Origin: Azolla caroliniana
Taxonomy: Eukaryota; Plantae; Polypodiophyta
Length of the DNA: 64,000 nucleotides
Assembly (NCBI GenBank): GCA_043228905.1
Contig: JBHGNT010000022.1
Coordinates: 5,270,001 to 5,334,000 of the forward strand
Direction: 5' to 3'
This document shows, piece after piece, positions 4,930 to 64,000 of the stretch; position 1 is the stretch's first letter, and each line of letters opens with the position of its first letter. Made by a program: the position numbers and the translations under genes. The notes beneath the pieces were generated by a model. It saw nothing but the letters and a program-made list of their open reading frames with translations, was not told the origin of the DNA and ran no database searches.

Positions 4930-5632
4930 TGTTGGGATTTCGGTCCCTCCGGATGGGATGTCCGGAGATGAATGACGGCAAGCCCGGTTGCGGTTACGGA
5001 GCCGGATGATGAAGACCCCGGCTACGGTGCCGGATGATGAAGACCCCGGCTACGGAGCCGGATGATGAATACCCCGGCTACGGAGTCGGATGATGAATAC
5101 CCCGGCTACGGAGCCGGATGATGAAGACCCCGGTTACGGAGCCGGATGACGAATGTACCCGGAGGGAGATCCGGATGCGGGGACATATTTGTGAATATGT
5201 TTGCCAAGAGCCCTTGAGGCTATATTTGTAAATAGTCCGAAAGTCATATGTGTATAAATATGACTTAGGGCAAACAGTTTAAGTTGTTGCTCATTTTCTG
5301 TTTTTTCACTGAGAGGAAGCAAAGTGAGAGCAGCCGAGAGAGAGATAGAGCGCGAGAGAGACGAAGAGGTAGACGCCTCTGTGTATTTCCGCCGCCTGTG
5401 GCGAGGACAGCGAGCTCAAGGTCGTTGCCTTGCAGCTCGCCATTGTATATTTCTCTGTGCATAGTTTGGTTTGGAGTCTCGCACTCCCGTGGTTTTTCCC
5501 GTATAGGGTTTTCCACGTTAATTCCTGTGTATCGCGTCTTTCTCTGTATTTCCTATTTTTCTGCTGCATTGATCCGCGATTACTCGGTTGTGGCCGAGTG
5601 GTGAAGGTGAATCCAAGCGTTGATTCCCAACA
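4930..5632 (+). repeat. copia 5' LTR with 28-bp U3 tandem array (~5002-5150)
   Basis: TGTTGGGA...TCCCAACA termini; unit CCGGATGATGAAGACCCCGGCTACGGAG x~5.5; TATA-like TATAAATA at ~5254. Confidence 0.95.
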
Positions 5633-5635
5633 AAC

Positions 5636-5647
5636 TGGTATCAGAGC
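5636..5647 (+). promoter_or_regulatory. primer binding site, tRNA-iMet
   Basis: TGGTATCAGAGC 3 nt after the LTR. Confidence 0.95.
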
Positions 5648-5661
5648 GACTGTTGCAGAAA

Positions 5662-8600
5662 ATGGAAGGCGGCGGCAGCGGGCAGCCGATGATGATGGTG
5701 CTGAATGCACAAAATTACGCCGACTGGAAGATCAAGATGGAGGACCTTCTGATTGTTCGGGACCTGTACGAACCGATTGACAGGTCGGAAATACCGAAAG
5801 GGGTACTTGAGTCGGAGTGGAAGCTCCTGAACCGGAAAGCCGTAGCGACGATCCGACAATACGTCGACGTGAGCGTCCTACAACATGTGGCAAACGACAC
5901 CAACGCATATGAGATGTGGAAGAAGCTGTCGGGCCTCTACGAGAGGAAGAATGCGTTGAACCGGACCTCCCTGATGAGGAAGATAGTGAATCTCAAGTAC
6001 CGGGACGGCGAGAGTATGGTGGAACACGTAAGCACGTTCATGGGATTCGTGAATCAGCTTGCGGCGATCAAGTTCCCGTTGGAGGATGCAATGCAAGCCA
6101 TCATCCTGATGTGTACACTGCCGGACAGCTGGGAGAACTTGGTGGTGACTCTCAGCACCTCCTGCACGGAAGACAACTTGTCCCTACAAACGGTAAAGAC
6201 AAGTATTCTAAATGAAGAAGCGCGTCGGAGAGATAAAGAACCGGCCTCCGACTCGAAGGCGCTGCTTACCGAATCGGAACGGGGAAGACACTGGAACCGG
6301 AGTCCGCAAAGACGGGAGAAGTCGGGGACCCGGTCGCAGTCAAGAGGAAGACCCACATGCTTCCACTGTGGGAAGCCGGGGCACTTTCGGAAGAATTGTC
6401 GGCATTACCGAAAGGACAACGGAGCCGACGACACGGATTCGAAGAAGTCACCGGAGAGAAACGGTGCATACCGGGGAGCCACGGACCGGAGAGGTCCGGA
6501 TCGGCGAGGGCAGGACCGGAAAGGAACGACGGCACTCGCGGCAAGTGAAGAGGAGATCATGCTCATCACCGAAGAAGGTGAACTAAACATTGCCGGCGAT
6601 GAGACGACCTGGGTGGTCGATTCCGGAGCGTCGTTCCACCTGACCCCGGAGAGAAGATACTTTTCATCCTACACAGCCGGCGAGCATGGCTGTGTTCGGA
6701 TGGGAAATGAAGGTACGTGCCGGATTGCCGGCATCGGAGACGTGTGGTTGACAACCCCGACCGGATGCAAAATGCTGCTGAAGGATGTCCGTCACGTTCC
6801 GGAGGTTCGATTGAACCTGATTTCGGCCGGGAGGCTAGACGATGAAGGCTACACAGGTAGCATCCGGAACGGCGTAATGAAGTTCAGCAAGGGGAGCCTG
6901 ATAGTGGCTCGGGCCCGGAAAGTCAACACACTGTACCTGATGAATGCCCGGTTATGTCCGGAAGAGCTGAATGTGGCAGCCGACACTGCCGGTGAGCTGT
7001 GGCACAAAAGACTGTGCCACATGAGTGAGAAGGGGATGAAGAGGCTTGCAGAAGACAACCTTATCCTAGTGAAGCATGTGCACCTGGAGAAGTGCACCGA
7101 TTGCCTGGCCGGTAAGCAGAACCGAACCTCCTTCCACTCAAGGCCACCGACGAGACGTAGCGCACCATTGGAGTTGGTGCACACTGATGTGTGTCAGGTA
7201 GAAACGAAGTCACATGGCGGAGCCCAGTACTTCGTGACTTTCATTGATGATCACAGCCGGAAGCTGTGGACGGCGCCGTTGAAGACAAAGGACCAAGTGT
7301 TGTCCGTCTTCAAAGAACTCCACGCGAGAGTGGAAAGAGAATCCGGCAAGAAGCTGAAAGCGATACGAGCGGATAACAGAGGGGAATACCGGGGGCAGTT
7401 CGCGGAGTACTGTCGCTCGAAGGGAATCCGGCTCGAGTTTACTGTGCCGAAGACGCCGGAACTGAACGGGCTGGCCGAGAGGATGAACCGGACCATAATG
7501 GAGAGGGTCCGGAGTATGCTAGCGCATGCGAAATTACCCAAGGGGTTTTGGGCTGAGGCGATGTCGACGGCGACATACGTGATAAATAGATCACCCTCAG
7601 TACCTTTGGACGGAGACACGCCGCAGAGAGTGTGGACCGGTAAGGAAGTGTCCTACCGGCATCTGAAGGTGTTCGGGTGTCTCGCATACGTGCATGTGGC
7701 AAAGGACCGGAGAGGAAAGCTAGATCCAAAGACCCGGCCATGCATATTCCTCGGTTACGGCGATGACGAGTTCGGCTACCGAGTATGGGACCCGGTCGAC
7801 AAGAAGATATTCAGGAGTCGAGACATCATCTTCATGGAGGACAAGACACTCGCCGACTGGGAGTCGGAGAAGAAGGTGAAGAGCTCCAAGTCGACCGGTG
7901 AGGATCAACTCTACGAGGAGCAGTCCCGACCGGCAAGAGACCGGTTAGCACTCGAGGATCCGGCCGAAGACGGTGAAGAAACAGGACCGGCCGAAGAAGA
8001 TGAAAATGATACCGGAACTGGCCCCGATCCCGAAATGGATTCGGATGAAGAAGAATCGGGAGAACCGGTTACCGAAGCTCCGGAACGGAGATATCCTCTA
8101 AGAGAGAGAAGGGCCCCCCGGAGATTTCCGGAACCAGAGCACGTGCTGCTAACCGACGAAGGGGAGCCGGAGAGCTTTGAAGAAGCAAAGCATGACACCC
8201 AGAGCCGCAGGTGGTTGAGTGCCATGCAGGACGAGATGGATTCCCTGCATGAGAACCACACATATGAACTTGTGGAGTTGCCGAAAGGAAAGCGGGCACT
8301 TCGAAACAAGTGGGTGTTCAAGCTGAAACCGGGAGATGCCGGAAACCCCCCGAGATACAAAGCCAGGATCGTGGTGAAGGGGTTTCAGCAGAAGAAGGGC
8401 GTCGACTTCGACGAGATATTTGCTCCGGTAGTGAAGATGACCTCCATCCGGACGGTGCTGAGCATAGCGGCAAGCATGGACCTCGAGGTAGAACAGATGG
8501 ACGTGAAGACGGCATTCCTTCACGGTGACCTCGAAGAAGAGATCTACATGCAGCAACCGGAAGGATTCGAGAAGAAAGGGAAGGAGCACCTGGTATGCCG

Positions 8601-9735
8601 GTTGAAGAAGAGCCTTTACGGACTGAAGCAGGCTCCCCGGCAATGGTACCGGAAGTTCGACTCCTTCATGACCGACGAAGGGTACCACAAAACGCAGTCT
8701 GATCACTGCGTGTTTGTGAAGAAGTTCGAAGGAGGAGACTCTCTAATACTCCTCCTGTACGTGGACGACATGTTGATCGTCGGACGGGACCAGGTCAAGA
8801 TACGGACGCTGAAGAAAGCGCTTCTCCGAACCTTCTCAATGAAGGACCTGGGTCCGGCGAGGCAAATACTAGGGATGCACATCATCCGGGACCGGAAGAA
8901 GAAGCAGTTGTGGCTGTCACAGGAGAAGTACGTGACAAAGGTGCTTCACCGGTTCAACATGTCGGAAGCAAGACCGGTCGGGTCAACCCTCCCGGCAAAC
9001 TGCAAGTTGTCCAGCAAGCAAAGCCCCAAGACAAAGGCTGAGAAGGAGGACATGATGAAAGTACCATATGCCTCTGCCGTCGGAAGCTTGATGTACGCAA
9101 TGGTGTGTACAAGACCGGACATAGGATATGCAGTTGGAGTGGTGAGCCGGTACATGAGTAATCCCGGCAAAGAGCACTGGAACGCGGTCAAGTGGATACT
9201 CCGATACCTAAAGGGCACGGCAAACGTGTGCCTCCGATTCGGCTCTGGTAAGCCCGAACTCGACGGCTTTACCGATTCGGATATGTCGGCTGATGAAGAT
9301 ACCAGCCGGTCCACATCAGGGTATGTGATGACGCATGCAGGGGGAGCTGTTTCGTGGCAGTCGAGGCTGCAGAAGACGGTTGCGTTGTCAACCACGGAAG
9401 CGGAGTACATGGCGGCTGTTGAAGCCGGCAAGGAAATAATATGGATGAAGGACTTCATTAGAGAGCTCGGTATCCGACAAGAGGAGTACCGACTCTACTG
9501 CGACAGTCAAAGTGCCATCCACCTTGCGAAGAACGCGGCCTATCACTCCCGGACGAAGCACATCCAGCGAAGATATCACTGGATCCGGGAAAGGATAGAA
9601 GACCAGGAGTTCATGCTGACGAAAATCCACACGGAAGAGAACGGGTCAGATATGCTGACCAAAGTGCTCACACCCGACAAGCTGGAAGCGTGCCGGAAGA
9701 GGGTCGGATTGGAGAGACATCCCATGCCGAAGTGA
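5662..9735 (+). CDS. copia gag-pol polyprotein (~1357 aa; Tnt1-like)
   Basis: CFHCGKPGHFRKNC knuckle, protease WVVDSGAS, GAG-pre LWHKRLCH, integrase FIDD/ADN/AERMN, RT LYVDDML, RNaseH STTEAEY/YCDSQSA. Probable ATG at 5662. Confidence 0.97.
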   Translation: MEGGGSGQPMMMVLNAQNYADWKIKMEDLLIVRDLYEPIDRSEIPKGVLESEWKLLNRKAVATIRQYVDVSVLQHVANDTNAYEMWKKLSGLYERKNALNRTSLMRKIVNLKYRDGESMVEHVSTFMGFVNQLAAIKFPLEDAMQAIILMCTLPDSWENLVVTLSTSCTEDNLSLQTVKTSILNEEARRRDKEPASDSKALLTESERGRHWNRSPQRREKSGTRSQSRGRPTCFHCGKPGHFRKNCRHYRKDNGADDTDSKKSPERNGAYRGATDRRGPDRRGQDRKGTTALAASEEEIMLITEEGELNIAGDETTWVVDSGASFHLTPERRYFSSYTAGEHGCVRMGNEGTCRIAGIGDVWLTTPTGCKMLLKDVRHVPEVRLNLISAGRLDDEGYTGSIRNGVMKFSKGSLIVARARKVNTLYLMNARLCPEELNVAADTAGELWHKRLCHMSEKGMKRLAEDNLILVKHVHLEKCTDCLAGKQNRTSFHSRPPTRRSAPLELVHTDVCQVETKSHGGAQYFVTFIDDHSRKLWTAPLKTKDQVLSVFKELHARVERESGKKLKAIRADNRGEYRGQFAEYCRSKGIRLEFTVPKTPELNGLAERMNRTIMERVRSMLAHAKLPKGFWAEAMSTATYVINRSPSVPLDGDTPQRVWTGKEVSYRHLKVFGCLAYVHVAKDRRGKLDPKTRPCIFLGYGDDEFGYRVWDPVDKKIFRSRDIIFMEDKTLADWESEKKVKSSKSTGEDQLYEEQSRPARDRLALEDPAEDGEETGPAEEDENDTGTGPDPEMDSDEEESGEPVTEAPERRYPLRERRAPRRFPEPEHVLLTDEGEPESFEEAKHDTQSRRWLSAMQDEMDSLHENHTYELVELPKGKRALRNKWVFKLKPGDAGNPPRYKARIVVKGFQQKKGVDFDEIFAPVVKMTSIRTVLSIAASMDLEVEQMDVKTAFLHGDLEEEIYMQQPEGFEKKGKEHLVCRLKKSLYGLKQAPRQWYRKFDSFMTDEGYHKTQSDHCVFVKKFEGGDSLILLLYVDDMLIVGRDQVKIRTLKKALLRTFSMKDLGPARQILGMHIIRDRKKKQLWLSQEKYVTKVLHRFNMSEARPVGSTLPANCKLSSKQSPKTKAEKEDMMKVPYASAVGSLMYAMVCTRPDIGYAVGVVSRYMSNPGKEHWNAVKWILRYLKGTANVCLRFGSGKPELDGFTDSDMSADEDTSRSTSGYVMTHAGGAVSWQSRLQKTVALSTTEAEYMAAVEAGKEIIWMKDFIRELGIRQEEYRLYCDSQSAIHLAKNAAYHSRTKHIQRRYHWIRERIEDQEFMLTKIHTEENGSDMLTKVLTPDKLEACRKRVGLERHPMPK

Positions 9736-9745
9736 AGGGGGATTT
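9731..9745 (+). promoter_or_regulatory. polypurine tract
   Basis: AGTGAAGGGGGA immediately before the 3' LTR. Confidence 0.9.
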
Positions 9746-10448
9746 TGTTGGGATTTCGGTCCCTCCGGATGGGATGTCCGGAGATGAATGACGGCAAGCC
9801 CGGTTGCGGTTACGGAGCCGGATGATGAAGACCCCGGCTACGGTGCCGGATGATGAAGACCCCGGCTACGGAGCCGGATGATGAATACCCCGGCTACGGA
9901 GTCGGATGATGAATACCCCGGCTACGGAGCCGGATGATGAAGACCCCGGTTACGGAGCCGGATGACGAATGTACCCGGAGGGAGATCCGGATGCGGGGAC
10001 ATATTTGTGAATATGTTTGCCAAGAGCCCTTGAGGCTATATTTGTAAATAGTCCGAAAGTCATATGTGTATAAATATGACTTAGGGCAAACAGTTTAAGT
10101 TGTTGCTCATTTTCTGTTTTTTCACTGAGAGGAAGCAAAGTGAGAGCAGCCGAGAGAGAGATAGAGCGCGAGAGAGACGAAGAGGTAGACGCCTCTGTGT
10201 ATTTCCGCCGCCTGTGGCGAGGACAGCGAGCTCAAGGTCGTTGCCTTGCAGCTCGCCATTGTATATTTCTCTGTGCATAGTTTGGTTTGGAGTCTCGCAC
10301 TCCCGTGGTTTTTCCCGTATAGGGTTTTCCACGTTAATTCCTGTGTATCGCGTCTTTCTCTGTATTTCCTATTTTTCTGCTGCATTGATCCGCGATTACT
10401 CGGTTGTGGCCGAGTGGTGAAGGTGAATCCAAGCGTTGATTCCCAACA
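9746..10448 (+). repeat. copia 3' LTR
   Basis: Direct repeat of 4930-5632 at offset 4816; identical shadow ORFs in the track. Confidence 0.95.
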
Positions 10449-46739: not shown

Positions 46740-49700
46740 TGCTATTTGAGGAGTTCCAAAAACTCAGTGGGAATAATTTTTGGAAAACTTGAAGATCTGA
46801 GTTTTAAGGGATTGAAAAACTGTTTTTTGTTCCATCGAGATTGATTTTAAACAACTTTTGTTATTGCATGGAAATGGAATACAAACACAGGTTCTCTCAA
46901 CATCATTGATACTAAAATTGGCATTTGAGAGCATTGGGGTGATATATGGTGATGTGGGCACATCCCCCCTCTATGTCTACAGTAGCACTTTCCCCGACCC
47001 CGACCACCTCCCGGGAGAGAGAGATATCCTGGGAGCACTCTGCCTCATCATCTACACCCTCACACTAGTGCCTCTCATCAAATATGTGCTCATCGTCCTC
47101 AATGCCAACGATAAGGGAAACGGTAATTCATATACAATATCAAGCTCCCCCCCCCATTTCAATGCCAGTTTAATTGTGCTAATTCAGCTCATTCACCTAT
47201 GTGGTTTGCTAATCGCTTGTACTTTTCGCTAGTAATTTTTGTAAATATTTCGCTTCATCGAGCAACTACATGATGATCCATAATTGTGCTGGTTCTCTAG
47301 TACTAATTGCGTTTATTTTCACACAAAGGCTGAAGACCATAGTAGTCGAGCTCTGCCTCACTTCCACAAGCTCGCCATAGTACAGAATGTCAAGGGCAAA
47401 TGTGCTCACAAACACGTAACTAGATCTCAAATGAATTGAAGAGTAGCGACACTTTAAGACTTTTTCTAGCACGTTTTTAACAAGGCATAGAAAAAACACT
47501 TTTTACCAAGGGTATACACTTTATCTTGTATTCATGAAAAGTCTACACATGGAGTTTTCCAAAAAAGAGGCCTTGACTGCACTTTAAGTGACTTGGCCCC
47601 CCAAAAATGTTACAATATGTATGTATGTATATATGTATGTATATGCATATGTATGTATGTATGTATGTATGTATGATGAGGGAATGCGAAGCTTGTACAT
47701 GCAGGCAAGAATGGGGGGAACATGAGAGAAAGTGGGTGCCTTCCCACATGATCTTGTGCTTAGACCACCATTACCTTTGCCTTGCATTTTACACACAGCT
47801 TTTGACCACCACAATAGGAAAACATGAGGTGAAAGAGTCTCTTTGACTCGCAGAGCCCATGATTCCTTCATCTAGGCGCATAATGTGCCTAGCTAGGATG
47901 AGATTTTTTGCGTAGTCTCAACATGGTGATTGGGTCAGACCTCCGCAGTCAATACTTAGGCTAGGTATGAGGGACCTCACATAAAAGTTTGGTCCACAAT
48001 TCACTATCCACCACCATAATAGAGGAAACTTGGTTATGTCACTCAACTAACACTTGTCCCCATCATCTATCGACATGCACAACCTCATAAAGTTTAACAA
48101 TCTTTGAGGCAAACTGGATTCTTTTTTCCCACACGGGCCAAATGTCTAAAACTTGTGTGAATTTTGACCGTCTTAAGGTGGTAGCTTTGCACTCTACTCG
48201 CTCATATGTCGGCATGCTAAGGTAAGTCGACTCCAGAACCAACAAGTTGAAGATCAAGCATTGTCTGGGTATAGACTTCCAGGAGTTTCTGAGACGAATG
48301 GGTCAAGGAGTCGACGAGAACTTGCTGCGAAAATAAAGGCGACATTAGAAGGAAGCACAATCGCCAAGCAAGGTTTGCTAGTGATGACACTACTTGCTAC
48401 TTGTGCAGTCATTGGAGATGGGGTTTTGACACCAGCTATATCAGGTGAGATGCTTTTTCTTATCAAGAATCAAGCGCTATTAATTTATACGAGCCTTAAA
48501 TCTAACATTTGAGAAATTTTGTATTAATTTTGCAGTAATATCAGCAGTCAATGGAATTCAAATCAAGGATCCGAACTTGACAACTAGTAAGTTGAGCTTG
48601 TTGTGGTAACCATCTTCTTACATGACTGGTATATATACAGCGTTTTAATCCGAACTAAATATACATACCCAACTGATGAAATCCCATATGATGACAAATG
48701 AACTAATCAGTTGTACTATAATAAATTTGCAGATCATGTGGTTCTCATTTCCATTGCTATCCTCGTTTCACTGTTCAGTATCCAAAGGTTTGGTACGGAG
48801 AAGGTGTCCTACATGTTTGCCCCATGTGTCACTGTTTGGTTTGCTTTCATTGCCTCCATCGGCCTTTACAACATCTTCAAATATGATGTGAGCATATTAC
48901 GTGCATTCAATCCCTACTACATCATTGACTATTTCCAGCGAAATGGAAAACGCGGCTGGTTGTCATTGGGTGGAATTGTGCTTGCCATAACAGGTTGGTT
49001 CGGAATGGCCTCTATGAATCGGGAATTAGTCAATAAATTTACCGACCAATGTTCATGTGGTTATTGAAGCTTGCTTGATGGCATGGGCTTAACTTGATTT
49101 AATCAAAATGCAGGCACTGAAGCCATGTTTGCGGACTTGGGGCACTTTTCGATGCCGTCCGTTCGAGTAAGTTATCTATTCATTGCACAGAATAACTGAC
49201 AATTTTCGAACTATAATTTCGCAATTCGAACCTAAGTTCATCTCGCGACAGTGTGGAACACTTGTTTGTCATGTGAAGAACATGAACACATGTTATAATG
49301 TATGCACCATCTTTAAGAGCCATACCATTTGGTTTTGGATGAATTGTTTGTAGCTAGCGTTTGTGAGCATGGTGTACCCTTCCCTCTTGGCTGCCTACAT
49401 TGGTCAAGGGGCTTACCTCCTCCAAAATCCAGAGCATGTTAGCCAAACATTTTACAAGTCTATTCCAGGTAAGTAATCTACAGAATACATTCAATCTCTA
49501 ATAATAATAATAATAATAATAAAACTTTCGGTAGTTTGGGTCTTTTAAAGCTATATTAAGTTGTGTTAATGTTGTCTTCATACTGCAGAACCTGTATTTT
49601 GGCCAATGTTTGTAGTAGCAACTCTAGCTGCCATCATTGCAAGCCAGGCTATGATATCTGCTACGTTCTCCATCATCGAGCAATCGCTCGCACTTGGTTG

Positions 49701-51560
49701 CTTCCCTACTGTAAAGGTCATCCACACATCCCCAAAATTTATGGGACAAGTCTATATACCCGAGGTGAATTGGATATTGATGGCTCTGTGTGTCTTCATT
49801 ACTGCAGTCTTTAAGACAACCACCTATATCGGAAATGCATATGGTAATTATTTCTCAATGAGCTTTCTATACAACTTTCTACTAAGTGTAAATTAGTGTA
49901 GACATTGGCTCATTGGTTCTTTATAAATGACCATGTGTGGTATCAAATTAAGGACAAATTTATGATTGATGCATTAGGCAAACATCAACATAGTTGTAAG
50001 TTTTTTGAATCAATGAGATCAAAGTTGATTGAGAAATAGTGTTCATGGATGAGTAAATGAAAGATTGCTTACATTTTGGATGCTTATAGTTGAAATCATT
50101 AGGTAGCAGTCAACATAGTTTTTTGAATCAATGAGGTCAAAGTGATTGAGAAATAGTGTTCATGGATGAGTAAATGAATTGAATCAATGAGGTCAAAGTT
50201 GATTGAGAAATAGTGTTCATGGAGGAGTAAATGAAATATTGCTTGCATTTTGGATGCTTATAGTTGAAATCATTAGGTAGCAGTCAACATAGCTAAAGGT
50301 AGAGATTGTTTATTTTAAGGCAAGTGCATGATGTTAAGGAATCAATATGAAGGCTAGAGATTGTTCTTTTGAACTATCTTTCTTGGACAAGAAATGGACG
50401 AAACTATGATCTAAAACACTTAAATCACACTCATGCTCTAAAATCCTACCTCTTTGCATAAGCATAAGATACATGATCCTAAGAAGTCAATAAGATTATC
50501 CATTCATGGACAATTGCATGGTTGGATAAAGTCTCATCGGTTATTGTTGGAATAATTTCCCTCATGTTATGCTCCTTTTGTAGGCATTGCTGTGATAGCC
50601 GTTATGATCGTGACAACGACGTTGATGACCCTTATCATGTTAATGATATGGCAGACAAACATATATCTTGCACTGGCCTTCTTCTCTATTTTTGGTTCAA
50701 TCGAGTTGTTATACTTCTCGGCCAACATATACAAGTTTGATCAAGGAGGGTGGCTACCAGTAGCATTTGCAACCTTCCTAGGAGCTCTTATGCTAATTTG
50801 GCAGTATGTGGCAAGCAAGAAATATACATTCGAAACTGATAACAAAGTGTCTATGGCATCATTAGCTGGAAGATTAGACAAGGAAATAGGTCTTACAAGG
50901 GTACCTGGGATGGGGCTCATGTATACACAACTAGTACATGGGGTGCCCCCAGTGTTTGACCATTTTGTGGAGAATTTAAGCGCCTTACACTCGGTCCTTG
51001 TGTTTGTGTCAGTTAAACATCTTCCGGTCTCATCAGTTCTGGACGAAGAGAGGTTCCTTGTGAGAAGAGTAGGAGACAAGAGGTACAGGATGTATAGAGC
51101 TGTGGTGAGATATGGATATTGGGATGCATTGATTGAGCACAAGAATTTTGAGTCCTTACTGATGGCAAGCTTGGAGGAAACCATAATGTCAAGCGCATGT
51201 GATCAAACATTAGAGCCAGAGACAGCGAACGGTAATGGTAGCGAATCAGAGGAGACAATCAGTGAAACTCCATTAATGATGTCGTCAAATACAAGTCAAA
51301 ATTTGAGGGAAAGGATAATCAAACACCAGAACGAGCTCATCGAGGAAGAATTGTCTTTCATTCGGAGGGCAAGGGAAGAAGGAGTGACTTACATGCTTGG
51401 AAATAGTGTAGTGGAAGCTTCTGAAAATGCTTCTTTTGGAAAGAAGATTGTTGTGAATGGCATCTATCATGGGCTACAACTCATATCTAGGAGGAGTAGA
51501 GTTGCACTTGAGATTCCACACAAGAGGCTGATGGAAGTTGGCATCACTTACACCATTTGA
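46270..51560 (+). CDS. HAK: HAK/KUP/KT potassium transporter (HAK5-like), 9 exons, ~813 aa, intact
   Basis: Exons 46270-46500, 46891-47122, 48178-48444, 48536-48586, 48733-48993, 49114-49166, 49354-49468, 49589-49843, 50584-51560. All introns are GT-AG with consistent phases (2442 nt). Motifs [84 protein letters not shown]. Confidence 0.95.
46654..46737. repeat. compound (CT)n(CA)n microsatellite in intron 1
   Basis: Direct reading. Confidence 0.95.
50007..50292 (+). repeat. local triplication in HAK intron 8
   Basis: GAATCAATGAG(G/A)TCAAAG..GAGTAAATGAA at 50007, 50125 and 50181. Confidence 0.85.
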
Positions 51561-55189: not shown

Positions 55190-55739
55190 TGTGCTGATTC
55201 CGCTGAGACCCTAGTCCTTCGGGGTTCGACTTCAAGGGAATCGTGGTTCAAGAATGGGAGAGTACGTCATAACTGTCAGGAATAGTATTGAGAAAGAGAA
55301 GAAATTAGTACTAAGAGGAATAGAGGGTGTAGAACACTCGAGAGAAGGAGAGAGAGTGTGTGTGTGTGAGAGAGTGAGAGATCGAGGGAGAGAAAATGAT
55401 GATGATAGCGATATATTATGTGAGAGGAATATACAAGGAAGGCTAGGAGGCTTAAGACTGGCGTTGAACCGATTTGGTTCGAAATAATGCCTTGTGCCTC
55501 CTTTTATAGTGTTCTCAAGAGTAGTCCTGAAGCTTCTAGAATGTTCTAGAGAAATCTGGAATATACATTAATTTTCTATAGTAAAACTTAAATAAAAATA
55601 ATATTTTACGTATTACAATAGATAGTGTAATGGTCAAGAGCTCGACCCATGTAACATAAGGTCATGGGTTTGAGTCTTGTCATATCATGACACTATCCCC
55701 CCTTTAAAACGACGAGTGTCACGAGTCATTTTGGATTGA

Positions 55740-55915
55740 GGACCCGGTTTATCTGGATATTGACGATGGAAGTCTTGAAGAAGAGCATGAGCATTGGTCA
55801 CATTCTCTATTGGTTCCCAAGTACGCTCGTTGGGACTATATCCTAGTCAATCGACTAAATAGTAGAGATTGCTGCGAACAATCTTGGAATCGAGGATGGC
55901 GGCAACCTCGTACTC
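55740..55915 (-). pseudogene. integrase C-terminal chromodomain (one W to stop)
   Basis: Manual translation EYEVAAILDSKIVRSNLYYLVD*LGYSPNERTWEPIENV. Confidence 0.85.
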
Positions 55916-57527
55916 AGGTCCATCTTCAAGTTCGATCTGGGGTGGAGGTTGTGGAATACATCATGGGATGGTGCTGTCTTGATAGGGTTCGAGGAGAGAA
56001 CTATGAAACACCGGATGTATGCGAAGTTGCGGGGGTAGATCAAGAAGAAAAGCGACATCATTAATCTTTCCGATAATACAGAAAGGACCTAGACGCCGAT
56101 AATCCAACTTCTCGCATGGGCGTGTAGTCTTGATGTGTCGTCGTAGTAGCCATACTTAATCTACAATGTTAAAATTGTATGGAAGCCGATGACGATCCGC
56201 GTCAACCTTGTGTGTTAGTTGAGCTTACTGTGGATGAGTAGATAAATCTACTTGTATCTTGCGTAACCGCTCCAAAAGATCCGCTGCGCAAGGATTTGTG
56301 GGTACCTCTGGGGTTTCAAATACACACCACCGGGGGTGACAACCCGTATAAGCATAAAATGGCGTAACTTTAGTTGATGAGTGGACAGAGTTATTATAGG
56401 AAAATTCGGCGAAGTGGAGAATATCCGTCCAGTCATCCTGATGATAGCTTAGAAAGCACCGAAGATACTGCTCTAGCGTTTGATTTGTTCTTTCTGCTTG
56501 GCCGTCGGTTTGCGGGTGGTAGCCGGAGGAGAGGTTACAAGTGACCTTGAGCATTTTAAAAAGGTGCTTCCAGAATTTCGAGACGAACTGGGGTCCACAG
56601 TCGCTGATGATATTATCAAGAAGGCCATGATGCCAACATACTTCACGCATGACAATTTCGACTGTTTCTTCACTGGAGATTTCCTTAGTACATGGCAGGA
56701 AATGAGCCATCTTCGTATATCGATCTACTACCGTTAAGAGACTAGAAGATCTATAATGAAATCTAGAGCAATGGATTGCCACGACTTGCTTGGAATTGGT
56801 AATGGTTCTAATAAACCATATGGATGATGCCTTGACATTTTTGCTCTGCAACATGTACTAAATCTAATGTCTTAGTACTACCAAAATGCCCAACTATATA
56901 TGTGTCACGACAGTTTTGGACTACTCGACGGTGGCAAGAACCATTCTGAACATACAAGAGTTTCTTAAAGAATAGTAATCCATCATGACATTCGAATTGT
57001 TGATAGTCCGTACCTAGTTGTTGCGATTGTGAACAAGATGCTCGAGAGGGATCAATTTGTGCTAGAATGGCTTGGGCGAAAGCATTTGTCTTCAAGTCCT
57101 CACGTATGGTATCGATAACGTGGGAATCCAGGGGCATGCTGAAGACCTGTGTTGCTTGCAGTTGTGCCGGTCCCAAGATTACTTGCTTTTGGTTATCGAA
57201 AGCTGACTCGCCGGGACGCAGTGCTAGATATGAACGCCGTGATAATGCATCTGCCTTCCCTTGGTGTTTCCCCGGAGGATATGTAATTTTGAAGTCGAAA
57301 CGCGTGAGGAATTGGGCCCACCGAGCTTGACGTCAATTTAACACACTAACACGCTGAAAGTAGGCAAGGTTTTTGTGATCACTGAATACGGTGACTTGAT
57401 GAGAAGATCCCTCTAGAAAATGCCCCCATTGTGTAAAAGATTCCACTATTGCTAATAACTCCTTATCATGAATTTCATAGTTGATTTTGGCGGCGTCAAA
57501 CTTGCGTGAGTGGAAAGCCATAGGAAG

Positions 57528-58668
57528 TGTTAGGAAACAGGTCCCTCCGAATGGGAAGTGAGAAGAACAGTGTTGATGAGCAACTTGGCCGAGGCCGAAT
57601 CCGGATGTGGTGTACCCGGCAACGGAAGACCCAGTGAGAACCGGATGTGGAGTACCCGACAACGGAAGACCCGGTGAGAACCAGATGTGGAGTACCCGGC
57701 AACGGAAGACCCGGTGAGAACCGGATGTTGCAGGCCCGGTGAGAACCTCTCACCGGATGAAGGGACATATATGTAAATATGTTCCAGAGAGCCCACTGGG
57801 GCTATATTTTAAAAATAGCCGAAAGTCATATTAGTATAAATATGACCTAGGGCAAACTCAGTGTGTGTGTAATTTTGGTGTAACGACTGTACAGAGAGAG
57901 AGACAAAGAGATTCCACTATTGCTAATAACTCCTTATCATGAATTTCATAGTTGATTTTGGCGGCGTCAAACTTGCGTGAGTGGAAAGCCATAGGAAGTG
58001 TTAGGAAACAGGTCCCTCCGAATGGGAAGTGAGAAGAACAATGTTGATGAGCAACTTGGCCGAGGCCGAATCTGGATGTGGTGTACCCGGCAATGGAAGA
58101 CCCAGTGAGAACCGGATGTGGAGTACCCGACAACGGAAGACCCGGTGAGAACCAGATGTGGAGTACCCGGCAATGGAAGACCCGGTGAGAACCGGATGTT
58201 GCAGGCCCGGTGAGAACCTCTCACCGGATGAAGGGACATATATGTAAATATGTTCCAGAGAGCCCACTGGGGCTATATTTTAAAAATAGCCGAAAGTCAT
58301 ATTAGTATAAATATGACCTAGGGCAAACTCAGTGTGTATGTAATTTTGGTGTAACGACTGTACAGAGAGAGAGACAGAGAGAGCGATACAGAGCATGTCT
58401 CTGTTGTAACCGCCGCAAGGCAAAGATTGTGAGCAAGAGGTCGTTGCCTCTGTGCTCCTTGTTATATTACTTTACAGAGTGATAGTTTGGAGTCTGTGGA
58501 CTCCCGTGGTTTTTTTTTCCCTCTCAGGGTTTTCCACGTTAATATCCTGTGTATTCTCTTTCTGTTTTGTGTACTTACCTCCATTCCCATTTCGTCTGTG
58601 TTTTGATTGTCATCAAGTGATCTACGCTTCAGTTGTGGCCGGAGATTATTCCGCGTATTTCCCTGTCA
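57528..58668 (+). mobile_element. copia solo LTR (57999-58668) inserted in chromovirus RNase H, with a partial duplicate (57528-57908)
   Basis: TG..CA termini; TSD GGAAG/GGATG; 40-bp U3 array; TATAAATATGACCTAGGG; 471-bp tandem duplication 57438-57908 / 57909-58379. Confidence 0.88.
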
Positions 58669-61097
58669 GGATGTAGCTTTTCATCATTACCTTGTTGTGA
58701 CAGAATGCAACCCAATGCGAAATCCGACACGTCCGCTTCCATGATGAATGGTTTTTCCAGATCAATGTGAGCTAGAATAGGAGCCAATGTAAATGTCGTT
58801 TTAAGATTCTCAAAAGCCATGTCCTCCTTTTCAGACCAAACGAATGATTGTCCCTTCTTAGTAAGTTGTGTGAGAGGCAGAACAAGCTTTGAGTAATCCT
58901 GTTTAAACTTGCGGTAGAAATTGGCAAAGTCTAAAAAGCATTGCATATCTCGCAACGAATGCGGAGTTTACCACTCTACCACCGTTTTGACCTTAGCTGG
59001 ATCCATGGAGATGCCTTCCGAGGAGATGACATAGCCCAGAAATTCCACTAGGTCGCACCCGAAACTACATTTTTCCAGCTTTGCATAAAGACTATCTTCT
59101 CGAAGTCATTTTAGTACTAATAATACATGAGAATCATGATCTTCTTGGGTCTTCGAATAAACCACTAGATCATCCAAATAGATGATCAAACAAACATCCA
59201 AGAGATCTCGGAATATATCATTTGCCATGTGCTAGAAGACTACTGGTGCATTAGTGAGGCCAAACGGCATGACCGTATACTCGAAGTGCCCATATCTGGT
59301 GCGAAACGCGGTCTTCCATTCATCTCCTGGTTAGATCTGTACGAGGTTATATGCTCCCCGTAAGTCGATCTTCGTGAAGAACCTTGCACCATTGATCCGT
59401 TCTAAAAGACTTGAGATAAGGGGAAGTGCATACTTATTTTTGAGGGTGACCTTATTCAAGCCACAGTAATCTACAACGAGACGAAGTGATCCATCCTTTT
59501 TCTTGACAAAGAAAATGGGTGCGCCGGGTGGAGATTTCGAATGCCGAATGAAACCATTTTCCAAATTCTCCTCTATATAGGCTCGAAGGACTTCTAGCTC
59601 TGTTGGTGACAAATTGTAGATCGATCCCCATGGTGGCTCTTTTCCCGGTTGTAAATCGATGATGCAATCAGATGGTCGATGGTGAGGAAGCGTATTGTCT
59701 TGTACTTTATCGAACACATCGGCATAATGATGATACTTCTTTGGAAGTTGAACGGTGAACTCTTCTTTAGTGGTGTTAGAGGGTTTTACTGATATTGCGA
59801 AGAGAAATATTTCTTCCTTGCGTCCTTCTTCCCACAATTGATGTAGCAAAATGGTTGCAATCTTATGAGTAGATCCTCGGGCTTGTCGATGCCGGATTTC
59901 TCTTGTTCTCCAATCTATGTTTGGGTTATGTAATTCAAACCATGGTAATCCTAAAACAATGAGATGTTATGGGATACTAATTATATTAAATGATACTACA
60001 CACGCTAGATTATCTAGGACAATATTAACGGGCTCTGACTCTTCTTTGATATTTCCAGAAGCAATGGGACGACCATCAATGACTACTACAGAGGCTGGAC
60101 ACGGGAGTTTTCTGAGAGATATCTGATGGGCTTGGGCAAAATTCCTATCCATGAAGCAAGAATTAGCTCCGGAATCTAGAAGTGCTAAGACATGTACTGG
60201 AGGGGTACTTTTAGTACTAACTATTACTTGGGCTACGAACACATTGCTAACTTGCTTAGAGGGAATGGAACCACTAATGGGCTGCACAGATCTAGGGTTG
60301 TCCAACCAAATGGCTCCTATTTTGGCTAGACTTAGTTGTTTAACTCTTCTTCTAACTGACTAAGAACATCAAATTTGTTCGCTAGATTTGGGCTATTAGT
60401 ACCATTAGGACTATCAGATATTTCTACTGAAATGGACTCGGGTTTAGTACAATTAGAACTAGCAACTATTTCGTTTACCTGTCTTCTTGGCCTATGGGAA
60501 CAATTTACTGCAATATGCCCTGGTTCACCGCAATAAAGACATAGTTGATTTGCTCGACGTTGCTGCTAACAACGGAGCGAACCATGCTAATGCTAAGCCA
60601 CTAAGTAGAGTGCCTACTAGTCCCACGCGTGATGCATCGTGGGATATCGAGAAGGATGCATTTGAATCACTAAGCATACCTGACTCAGAAAACCTCTAAA
60701 TTGTGATCGGGACCCATCAAATTTTGTAGGAAGAACAATCTTGGGTTCTTTGTGAATCCCTTGACTGCTTGATCCGTGTTGTTGTAGTGATACAATATTC
60801 GCTTCAAGTTGTAGTACACGTAATGTCAGCTCCCCGTGTTGTTGTTTTTCCAGTGCTATTTGTTGAAGATCCCCCAACAAACGGTGATTTTCTTGTTCTA
60901 GTGCTACAAATTTCTCTTTTAAGCACTAGAGCTCTGAGAAAACAGATTGGTATTCCTGAGCGCTAACAGTTTCCATTTTACTAGGGAGGGAAAAAGGGGT
61001 AAGAAGATGAGGGAAACCGGAAAGAAGACTGGGAAAAAAGGGGATATGTAAGAAGATAAAAGGAAGAGGAGGAAAGGAGGAGACGGAAGGGGACGAA

Positions 61098-61110
61098 AAT
61101 TGGTTCAAAC
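61098..61110 (-). promoter_or_regulatory. putative self-priming PBS (non-tRNA)
   Basis: No TGG tRNA complement after the 5' LTR. The sequence is complementary to an LTR segment ~34 nt downstream of TATAAAA. Confidence 0.65.
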
Positions 61111-64000
61111 TATCAAGAATAGTACTAAGACAGAAGAAATTAGTACTAAGAGAGGAATATTATTACTAAGAGGAATAGAGGGTGTAGAACACTTGAGAGA
61201 GAGAGAGAGAGAGATCGAGGGTGAGAAAAATGATGATGACAACGATATATTATGTGAGAGGAATATACAAGGAAGGCTAGGAGGCTTAAGATTGGCGTTG
61301 AACCGACTTGATTTGAAATAATGCCTTGTGCCTCCTTTTATAGTGTTCTTAGGAGTAGTCCTGAAGCTTCTAGAATGTTCTAGAGAAATCTGGAATATAC
61401 ATTAATTTTCTATAGTAAAACTTAAATAAAAATAATATCCTTTGTATTACAATAGCCATTACAATAGGCAGTGTAATGGTCAAGAGCTCGACCCATGTAA
61501 CATAAGGTCATGGGTTTGAGTCTTCCCATATCATGACAGTAACCATGATACGGGTGACTATACATTGAACTTGTAAGTGTTGACTTAATCGTGGAGATTA
61601 GGAAGATGGCTACAACCGACTTCTTATGCCCTAGCACACACCATGTATGTATATGGCTCAGCATAGAGAAAATAAACTCGGCACGAACAATTACGAGAAC
61701 ACAGAGAGTTAGGCAATCAGAACCTATATTTCAGACGTTGAATAGAAAATTATCACTAGCTTTTTACAAGTTTTCCATGCCCTTTATATATAGGTTCATG
61801 GTTGGTTACGCTCGGCTTGTGAACTATTACTTTCATTAACTACGCTTCGACCGTCCCTACGCTACGACTATTGCTCCCTCATTACTATGCTACAACCCCA
61901 CCCGCCTTCTTCGCTTGCTATAACTGTCCCTTTTTCTTTTCTCCTTCTCGATCTTTCTCACTTGGCCGGCCAAGGCGACCAACACGGAGCTCCATGGAAA
62001 CATCGAGCGGCATGTTTGGCTCGGTTGATGGAGAGTAAGGTAGGGAGTGAGGGTTTCTATCTCGGGGGTGAGAGTGCACGAGATCTTCTATGCAAGGAGG
62101 GAGAGAGATTTTGAGCAGGGGCGAGAGTGCAAGAGAGCTTATATGCAGGTGGTGAGAGAGCTTGAGGGCCATGAGCTTTTGTGCCTATGTGAACTCTTGG
62201 CCTGTGGTGCCCTGCTTTTTGTATATGCTTTGTGGCCTTGTGTCCTAGATTAAGAATCTTGCCTGCCATAATTAGGTTTTAAGGCCACACGTCGGAAACA
62301 GTTTGTACTTGCTTTTCTTGCATGGTGTGCATGCTCCTTAAATACTTAACTTAGTGGGCCTTTTTTCTTTTCTTTTCATATACACTTAATGTAAATAATC
62401 TAGTAGGTGGGGTTAGTTACCATGACCAGGGCGATATGCCCTCGTGAGCCTCCATTTTACCTAGCTCGGCCTGATCGTGGTCGTGTCGTTTGTCGGTGAA
62501 TGCGTTAGGTGGGGTATGGCTAAGATATGGCTTTAATTGGAATCCATTAACCCATTTCATCATGATTTCGCCAGTCAGAATGGATTCGAGTAAACTAGCC
62601 GGTACCATTTCGGAGGCATCATTTGCATTAGAGCACTCCTGATAGCGGTGTCGGAGGCGTCGACAAAAACATGAAAGGGTTGCTACCAATCAGGGGGTTG
62701 TACAATCGGTGCGTGAGATAGCATAATCTTGAGAGCCTTATATGCGTCATCTTTTGTTTCTATCCATTAGAAATGTGTTTGATGGATCGCCACATGTAAA
62801 GGCGTCACGAAATCGGCTAAGTATCGAAGCATTCGGTTATGCCATCGGATTTGCCCCAATAATCGGCTTAGAGCCTTTGCGGTAGTCGGAGCCGGAGCGG
62901 CTAAGATAACATTCACTTTGTCAGGGTCCATTGCGATCCCCTCTCGACTCACTATATTCCCCAGTAGGGTGCTGCTATCTGATACGTTAAACCCACATTT
63001 CGCCGGATTCAAGCTTAGTTGAGCCTACCGACAACATTCCAAATAGAGGCGTAGCTGGTCGAGATGTTTGATGTGGTGGTTGTAAACAACAAATTCATCG
63101 AGAAAGAGTTGCATGAAGGCCGGAATATATTCACCGAAAATCTCGGTGATGATACGTTGGAATGTGGCAGGCACCGTATTGAACCCGAACATCATTACTA
63201 CAGCCACGAAAACACCCCACTCGATTACAAATGTTGTCTCCTCTTGGTGCTCGGGTTGCATTTGGATCTGATTACCCATTGAACCCATCGAGAAAGCTGT
63301 AACGCTCGTGGCCAACCACTGCATCCAAAACATCGTCCGTAAAGGGAAGGGGGAAATGCAGTGGTAATTGTTTCTATGTTCAACTTCCGATAATCGATGC
63401 ACACCCGAATTTTGTTGTTTTTCTTTGGGACGACAACGATAAGGCTCAGCCATGTGGCACGTACGGGCGTGGCGTAACTCATTTACCGATTTCGGGTCAG
63501 ATTCCTGACCGATATCCTGATCCCCCTCCATTGGTACGGAGAAATACGGGTTGACGGCTTCCATGATGTCGATCTCAAAGAGCGGTACAATCTTCGGGTG
63601 GTCCTCCAAGAAGCCTTTGACTTCGTCATCTACTAACCCATCCAGCATATGACCACCTTTAGCGTACAGAGGTGTGATATCCTTCGATGTGTGGAGTCAC
63701 TCCTCCGTGGCAACGCGCACCTTGGTCTTCCCTCGGTGGAAAGAGATCATGTTATGCTGCCAGTGTTGTTTGATGTTCGCAATGTGTAACAAGAAGTGGC
63801 CAAGCAGCATTGGGTATGCATCGGGAGTGTCCAACCGTAAAACCATAGCCGAGATTGTGAAGGTGTGGCTGCCAAGGACGAAATTGAGTTTCCGAATTAG
63901 GTCGAGAGGTAGGACAGAACGGGCGTCTGCCATACGCAACCAAAATGGGCAAGGTTCCCATTGTATAAGGTCGAGAGATCTACAGGTTGCCTTGCTAATT

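What the first reader, a model, noticed from the sequence alone, without database searches (positions are those of the whole stretch)
61098..61342. Tf1-like self-priming structure in a plant chromovirus
Seen: no tRNA PBS follows the 5' LTR. The PBS position reads UUGAACCAAUU (61108-61098), complementary to the LTR segment AGUCGGUUCAA (61308-61298; AAUCGGUUCAA in the 3' LTR, 10/11 match). That segment starts ~34 nt downstream of TATAAAA (61342-61336), at the expected TSS. Known: S. pombe Tf1 primes reverse transcription with the first 11 nt of its own RNA, and Tcn1-like chromoviruses of non-seed plants are related to fungal elements. Inference: tRNA-independent priming here. The window would then hold four priming modes (Met, Trp, Arg, self).
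Basis: partly seen in the sequence, partly recalled or inferred. Interest (0 to 1): 0.75.

Follow-up and report, generated by a model that had tools for sequence, protein, structure and literature searches.

The report
Self-priming retrotransposon family in a fern
This is a decayed copy of a jumping gene, likely from a water fern, whose primer site pairs with a 12-base stretch of its own terminal repeat, so the family likely starts copying itself with its own RNA, as yeast Tf1 does and as was already predicted for related moss elements; rare mis-copied insertions in the genome likely record where that RNA is cut.

Summary
Observation confirmed. The element is a degraded Ty3/gypsy chromovirus (61538-55274, minus strand) with no tRNA-type PBS. 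This copy's pairing is decayed: 9 Watson-Crick, 1 G-U and 1 mismatch of 11. Young relatives pair perfectly over 12 nt starting at C|A, 33 nt after the TATA box. A second family in the genome and metagenomic relatives keep the pairing with different letters at TATA+32/33. Seven tRNA-primed elements tested show no such complement. RT-RNase H groups (100/100) with fungal and vertebrate elements. Self-priming is proven for Tf1 and was predicted for 83% of 1,500 plant Tcn1 elements (PMC6317226). This scan noted it before in two moss genomes. The core claim is therefore a new member of a known kind. Additions: (1) two host genes point to a fern, while the papers read limit Tcn1 to mosses and Selaginella; (2) about 2% of family junctions are fold-back insertions joined at the primer, and in 8 of 12 events the opposite arm ends within -1 to +15 nt of the predicted cut; (3) a short covarying helix sits beside the cut. 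The TSS was not measured. 'Four priming modes' is three tRNA types plus self-priming.

The parts
61111..61538 (-). 5' LTR, 428 bp (TG...TA, terminal CA decayed)
61336..61342 (-). TATA box TATAAAA
   Evidence: 34 nt before the 11-mer in 28 of 30 copies
61298..61309 (-). Predicted 12-nt self-primer at the predicted RNA 5' end (decayed in this copy); predicted RNase H cut between 61298 and 61297
61289..61297 (-). Post-primer segment C-GC-CA-GTC-like, predicted to pair with the U5 end and GT spacer (second helix)
   Evidence: MFE in six of seven elements folded; covaries GUC/GAC, GUUAUGGA/UCCGUGAC
61109..61110 (-). GT spacer between LTR end and PBS
61097..61108 (-). PBS, 12 nt, complementary to the self-primer, not to a tRNA 3' end
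61456..61538 (+). Decayed tRNA-like segment (A-box/B-box-like) antisense to the element at the start of U3; same in the 3' LTR
   Evidence: 3 of 300 and 15 of 300 shuffles for the two LTRs; Rfam tRNA E=0.67, below gathering score, in relative L071; no Rfam or ARAGORN hit in the window copy or 28 family loci
60335..60976 (-). gag remnant (ATG at 60976; zinc knuckle), broken and partly deleted
55688..60359 (-). pol remnant: protease, RT, RNase H, integrase, SH3, group I chromodomain; broken by stops, frameshifts and an insertion
57521..58666 (.). Nested insertion in RNase H: copia-like LTR piece with an overlapping 471-bp tandem duplication
   Evidence: joint 57520-58667
55693..55708 (-). Polypurine tract
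55274..55692 (-). 3' LTR, 419 bp (TG...CA), with TATA 55508-55502 and primer copy 55475-55464

Best explanation
This is a decayed copy of a Tf1/sushi-group chromovirus family, likely in a water fern, whose PBS pairs with a 12-nt LTR segment 33 nt after the TATA box and which likely primes reverse transcription with the first 12 nt of its own RNA. Steps: (1) inferred: Pol II starts at C|A, TATA+33; (2) shown in sequence and predicted by folding: nt 1-12 pair with the PBS, stacked on a short helix with the U5 end that leaves a bulged C at the junction; (3) inferred from Tf1: RNase H cuts after nt 12 and the 12-mer primes minus-strand strong-stop DNA; (4) inferred: plus-strand synthesis copies the primer back into the PBS, giving matched primer/PBS changes and a hypervariable junction right after the PBS. 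About 2% of products mis-prime at the primer and integrate as fold-backs (structures shown, origin inferred). The window's own copy is broken and its pairing has decayed.
For:: 11/11 Watson-Crick in 13 of 30 loci, 10/11 in 10, 9/11 in 6, 3/11 in 1 (PBS deleted); 5 of 5 younger self-type elements 11-13 nt (0 of 300 shuffles); 6 Met-PBS and 1 Trp-type PBS elements at most 5 nt. Family B (L047) has 5 changed letters on both sides, at TATA+32, repeated in 15 more copies. Metagenomic L071 and L072 pair 12/12 at TATA+33/+32; L073 pairs 10/11 with its 3' LTR. Predicted primer:PBS pairing probability is 0.91-0.95 in 5 of 7 elements folded, 0.69 in the window copy. Tree: window RT lies in a 40-row clade (100/100) with fungal and vertebrate elements, apart from the genome's Met-PBS chromoviruses and the seed-plant and algal rows. 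Fold-backs: 14 junctions in family A against 645 exact LTR-end/PBS junctions, and 3 of 131 in family B. Two carry 5-bp TSDs (L150, L156). 8 of 12 distinct family-A events end their U5 arm within -1..+15 nt of the primer's last base (P=3e-7 under my uniform null).
Against: No TSS or cleavage was measured; no RNA holder was listed. The second, PBS-downstream duplex of the Tf1 'pretzel' was not found in any of 7 elements folded, and the upstream arm tested alone did not clearly beat shuffles (best 11 of 200). L074 (79% RT identity) keeps only an 8-nt run and no complement was found for L075. L073's own 5' LTR pairs poorly (P=0.09). 4 of 12 fold-back events end elsewhere (+43, +96, +187, full LTR). 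Five of the 11 families in the covariation table were picked for complementarity, so its 109 of 110 pairs is partly circular. Only 15 host tRNAs were compared; tRNA-Asn has a 9-nt T-loop complement to the PBS region.
Confidence: 0.9

Rival explanations
1. The primer is the same sequence but comes from the 3' U3-R end of an RNA (same or co-packaged molecule) or from an upstream-started transcript, not from the capped 5' end.
For: The 3' LTR holds the same 12-mer. Fold-backs carry the whole U3 fused to the primer, as a U3-bearing primer would give.
Against: In about 98% of junctions complementarity stops at, or 1-3 nt beyond, the C|A start. The start sits at TATA+32/33 in five diverged families. 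In 3 of 7 elements a U3 arm would fold over the 3' copy of the primer (0-3 of 500 shuffles).
Confidence: 0.05
2. Priming by an internal tRNA fragment ending in the T-loop (GGTTCAA); the LTR match is a by-product.
For: The family-A PBS region has a 9-nt complement in the T-loop of a host tRNA-Asn and 7-8 nt in four others. A tRNA-like segment lies in U3.
Against: Family B's PBS has at most 6 nt to any of 15 tRNAs but 11/11 to its own LTR. PBS and LTR segment change together across families. The half-tRNA primers listed in PMC6317226 are half-Met and half-Ile, used only by copia lineages.
Confidence: 0.03
3. The complementarity is a structural 5'-leader element (dimerisation, packaging or translation control) or chance, and priming is by an unknown route.
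For: The window copy alone is not beyond chance (32 of 300). Novikova 2010 found neither tRNA priming nor self-priming in SM-Tcn1.
Against: The site is at the exact PBS position (LTR+2) in all families. Fold-back joints start at the primer's last base and mostly end at the base after it. The junction after the PBS is hypervariable (8 different trinucleotides in 30 copies), as expected if it is re-made at each cycle.
Confidence: 0.02

Closest known systems
Plant Tcn1 chromoviruses (REXdb chromovirus|Tcn1; Neumann et al. 2019, PMC6317226, passages and supplementary table 5 read; Novikova et al. 2010, PMC2864245, passages read)
   Same: Group I chromodomain with aromatic residues, overlapping gag/pol frames in young copies, 5-bp TSD, 5.3-5.8 kb for young copies, no tRNA PBS, LTR complement at LTR+2; predicted self-priming in 83% of 1,500.
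   Different: Host is likely a fern; those papers found Tcn1 only in mosses and Selaginella, and a PCR survey of 26 ferns and horsetails reported other clades. No labelled Tcn1 sequence was in my tree, so strict clade membership is untested. Those papers give only a blastn prediction; the fold-back record is extra.
Tf1/Tf2 of S. pombe, Tj1, Tf1/sushi group (PMC7175516, PMC10085805, PMC4600332, PMC11042837: passages read; Levin's primary papers not held)
   Same: Self-primer at the RNA 5' end complementary to the PBS; a PBS-adjacent duplex with LTR sequence downstream of the primer; PBS re-copied from the primer, with non-templated additions reported for Tf1.
   Different: 12-nt (family A) or 11-nt (family B) primer versus 11 nt in Tf1; only one of the two extra 'pretzel' duplexes found; cleavage and TSS not shown experimentally here.
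TAR copia lineage (Houba, Osr-1), predicted self-priming in 89% (PMC6317226 supplementary table 5)
   Same: Plant LTR element with an LTR-complementary PBS.
   Different: Ty1/copia; unrelated lineage.
Helenus/Cassandra TRIMs with small-RNA-derived LTR sequence (PMC10886601, passages read)
   Same: tRNA-like sequence inside an LTR.
   Different: Here the tRNA-like segment is decayed, antisense to the element and in an autonomous chromovirus with a TATA promoter; weakly supported.

Membership tests
Ty3/gypsy chromovirus | Order PR-RT-RH-INT with C-terminal chromodomain, LTRs, PPT, TSD | tested here: met
Tf1/sushi group | RT-RH groups with fungal/vertebrate chromoviruses, apart from tRNA-primed plant clades | tested here: met
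   40-row clade 100/100; reference rows are named by host organism only, Tf1 and sushi themselves were not in the tree
Tf1/sushi group | PBS complementary to LTR segment, not to a tRNA 3' end | tested here: met
   tRNA comparison limited to 15 host tRNAs
Tf1/sushi group | Complementary segment is the RNA's 5' end | tested here: inconclusive
   indirect only: TATA+32/33, C|A start, complementarity stops there; no raw RNA reads available
Tf1/sushi group | Three-duplex 'pretzel' structure | tested here: inconclusive
   PBS-upstream helix predicted and covarying; PBS-downstream duplex not found in 7 of 7
Tf1/sushi group | RNase H cleavage after the primer | not testable with these tools
   indirect: 8 of 12 fold-back arms end at -1..+15 of the predicted cut
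Tcn1 clade (strict) | Clusters with Cryptococcus Tcn1, PpatensLTR2, SM-Tcn1 | not tested
   no labelled reference obtained
Tcn1 clade (strict) | Group I chromodomain with aromatic cage | tested here: met
   young copy reads YEV..YYLVDWLGY; Pfam Chromo in the window copy, where the W codon is a stop
Tcn1 clade (strict) | Overlapping gag and pol frames, 5-bp TSD | tested here: met
tRNA-primed plant chromoviruses (Galadriel, Reina, Tekay, CRM) | TGG-starting tRNA PBS | tested here: not met

The most novel reading that the evidence does not exclude
Two recently active self-priming Tf1/sushi-type families are abundant in a water-fern genome, outside the moss/Selaginella range reported for plant Tcn1. 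Their integrated fold-back cDNAs are a fossil record of self-priming in a plant: they join U3 and primer to a minus-strand strong-stop copy that ends at the RNase H cut, so primer length and cut site can be read from genome assemblies alone. A U3 anti-primer hairpin may shield the 3' copy of the primer to limit such mis-priming.
Probability: 0.55. Interest if true: 0.58.

Novelty: new member of a known kind. Interest (0 to 1): 0.4.

Why it matters
Self-priming is experimentally proven in fission-yeast Tf1; in plants the papers read give only a sequence prediction. Here the prediction gains compensatory changes across families and, more usefully, dated mis-copied insertions whose joints fall at the primer end and at the predicted cut. 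That offers a genome-only test of priming mechanism for any candidate self-priming lineage. A fern host would widen the range of a clade whose patchy distribution was used as an argument for fungus-to-plant horizontal transfer. The mechanism itself is not new.

Tried and rejected
TSS mapping: no RNA holder listed; the three runs laid were contigs only and gave no start sites. Rfam scan of the element: one chance hit; ARAGORN found 0 tRNAs in 28 family loci; Rfam on L072's LTR start gave no tRNA hit. Whether the single-G extension after the family-B PBS (5 of 131 junctions) arose repeatedly was not resolved by the tree. U3/R hairpin: significant in 3 of 7 elements, not in the window copy (492 of 500 shuffles as good). 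Simple inversion between primer and PBS as the source of fold-backs: rejected, because the far arm joins distant internal sequence, not the PBS and leader. Of 20 regions, 12 with clear LTR pairs were tested and 8 were not. Of 20 regions, two had no LTR pair and one was mis-called. Of 79 metagenomic loci most lacked a usable LTR pair. The tree label 'mg_tMet' on L099 was my error: it has no Met PBS, and its PBS is undetermined. One search used wrong coordinates for L045 and was not used. No named Tcn1 reference came. Papers PMC230564, PMC6388632 and PMC109269 were not held. Searches for Tcn1 in ferns and for fold-back records of self-priming found no report, within an open-access library only; supplementary file 1 of PMC6317226 (per-element table) was too large to read.

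Full report
Observation. The element lies on the minus strand: 5' LTR 61538-61111, 3' LTR 55692-55274, 94% identical over 397 aligned bases, TSD GTTAC/GTTAT, PPT 55708-55693. Between the LTRs are broken remnants of gag (zinc knuckle), protease, RT, RNase H, integrase, SH3 and chromodomain, with a nested LTR piece and duplication in RNase H. After the 5' LTR come GT and the PBS; there is no TGG. In this copy the pairing is 9 Watson-Crick, 1 G-U and 1 mismatch of 11. Its longest exact run, 7 nt, is reached by 32 of 300 shuffles. The single copy is suggestive, not decisive.

Family conservation. A DNA search of the own genome gave 42 matches; the best 30 loci were read (two look like duplicates). 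Pairing was 11/11 in 13 of 30, 10/11 in 10, 9/11 in 6 and 3/11 in 1; the TATA distance was 34 nt in 28 of 30. There are 645 exact LTR-end/PBS junctions of the commonest type. In the first 30, the next base was T in 30 of 30, so the complement is 12 nt and begins at a C|A step 33 nt after TATA. The following three bases took 8 different forms. TATA at about -30 with a pyrimidine/purine start is the usual plant promoter layout (own knowledge).

Covariation and controls. Of 20 chromovirus regions fetched by an SH3 profile, 12 with clear LTR pairs were tested. Five self-type elements gave 11-13 nt complements (0 of 300 shuffles); six Met-PBS and one Trp-type element gave at most 5 nt. Family B (L047, RT 64% identical) has a PBS and LTR segment that differ from family A at 5 positions on both sides, at TATA+32; 15 further copies repeat this. 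Metagenomic relatives L071 and L072 pair 12/12 at TATA+33 and +32, L073 pairs 10/11 with its 3' LTR, L074 keeps 8 nt and L075 gave nothing. Across 11 families 109 of 110 positions pair (family-swap null maximum 85), but five of those families were selected for complementarity.

Structure. Folding from the predicted start gave primer:PBS pairing probabilities of 0.91-0.95 in five elements, 0.69 in the window copy and 0.09 in decayed L073. The MFE repeats a small helix stacked on the primer duplex: a bulged C, two pairs with the GT spacer, an internal loop, then 3-8 pairs with the U5 end, whose letters differ between families. The PBS-downstream duplex of the Tf1 'pretzel' (described in PMC10085805, passages) was not found in any of the seven, and the upstream arm alone did not clearly beat shuffles.

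Fold-back insertions. In family B the base after the PBS is C in 122, G in 8 and T in 1 of 131 junctions. Three of the G loci (two may be one event) continue as an inverted copy of the LTR from the primer's last base back to base 1. L150 (LTR, GT, inverted 261-1) and L156 are flanked by 5-bp TSDs, so they were likely integrated as units. Family A has 14 such junctions, 12 distinct. In 8 of the 12 the U5 arm ends at -1, 0, +1, +3, +3, +5, +13 or +15 nt from the primer's last base and is joined to distant internal sequence. The others end at +43 (cut by a later insertion), +96, +187 or span the full LTR. Under a uniform null over 235 nt, P=3e-7 (the null is my assumption). That is the extent expected of minus-strand strong-stop DNA made on an RNA cut right after the primer. 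It implies, by inference, that primer and PBS pair during reverse transcription and that the template ends there. Tf1 cDNA is reported to keep a single-stranded PBS copy and non-templated bases at its 3' end (PMC11042837, passages), which fits these joints. Earlier scan notes describe fold-back inserts in tRNA-primed elements of other genomes, so fold-backs as such are not special; their register here is the evidence.

Lineage and host. In an RT-RNase H tree of 50 rows the window's RT joins families A and B in a 14-row clade (100/99), inside a 40-row clade (100/100) with fungal and vertebrate elements. The genome's Met-PBS chromoviruses and the seed-plant and algal rows lie outside. No labelled Tcn1 was available. 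The window's KUP/HAK gene groups with Adiantum proteins (100/100; no moss row among the listed hits). A phytochrome of the genome is 89% identical to Pilularia, 85-86% to other ferns and 72-78% to mosses. The host is likely a heterosporous fern; an earlier scan note guessed moss.

What is known. Tf1 pairs its first 11 bases with the PBS and RNase H cuts between 11 and 12 (PMC7175516, passages). Neumann et al. predicted self-priming for most plant Tcn1 elements, 83% of 1,500, and found the clade only in mosses and club-mosses (PMC6317226, passages and supplementary table 5). Novikova et al. found Tcn1 in basidiomycetes, mosses and Selaginella after surveying 26 ferns and horsetails by PCR, and saw no self-priming in SM-Tcn1 (PMC2864245, passages). 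Searches for Tcn1 in ferns and for fold-back evidence found no report in the library held. This scan reported the same signature in two moss genomes.

Rivals. A tRNA T-loop fragment matches 9 nt of the family-A PBS region but fails for family B (15 tRNAs only). A primer from the 3' U3-R end is possible and may explain the fold-backs, but not the roughly 98% of junctions that stop at the C|A start. The 'four modes' are Met, Trp-type and Arg-like tRNA sites plus self-priming, an ordinary mix.

Verdict. Real, well supported, and a new member of a known kind (self-priming confidence 0.9; interest 0.40). The fern host and the fossil strong-stop record are the parts worth following.

Noticed in passing
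window 61456-61538 and 55616-55692; L045, L071, L072 LTR starts: Decayed tRNA-like segment (A/B-box-like) antisense at the start of U3 in several related families; 0-15 of 300 shuffles in family A, L071 and L072, 37 of 300 in family B; Rfam tRNA E=0.67 in L071. Could be a Pol III/TFIIIC site; unproven.
   Followed up: partly
L046, L047, L071 (U3/R border): Inverted copy of the primer in U3 just upstream of it forms a hairpin possible only at the RNA's 3' end (0-3 of 500 shuffles in 3 of 7 elements).
   Followed up: partly
L150 (G000:C2 ~3.115 Mb), L156/L157, L189-L202, L209: Fold-back insertions joined at the self-primer, two with TSDs; L191, L198 and L199 share one junction.
   Followed up: yes
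L159-L188, L203-L232: Hypervariable bases right after the PBS: extensions complementary to positions -1 to -3 followed by C/T runs, like a fossil 5'-RACE with non-templated additions.
   Followed up: partly
window ~46800-51560 (+): KUP/HAK potassium transporter gene, closest to Adiantum proteins.
   Followed up: yes
window 4930-10448 (+): Copia-type element with 100% identical 703-bp LTRs, Met PBS and a 1374-aa open frame.
   Followed up: no
window 27376 (+) and 4642 (-): Arg-like and Trp-type PBSs of other elements. Earlier scan notes describe families in this genome with a tRNA-Arg copy in place of the PPT; not checked for this element.
   Followed up: no
L031-L034, L037, L041-L043: A second, Met-PBS chromovirus lineage with single 1479-aa frames and 94-99.6% identical LTRs coexists in the genome.
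   Followed up: partly
L233, L240, L241, L250-L252: Tandem arrays of tRNA-Lys(TTT), tRNA-Ile(TAT) and tRNA-Arg(TCT) genes; some Lys-type units carry a GTT anticodon.
   Followed up: no
L076, L080, L083, L085, L089, L102, L139, L141, L144, L147: Metagenomic elements grouping with fungal or unnamed rows, with 8-10 nt self-complementary PBSs.
   Followed up: partly
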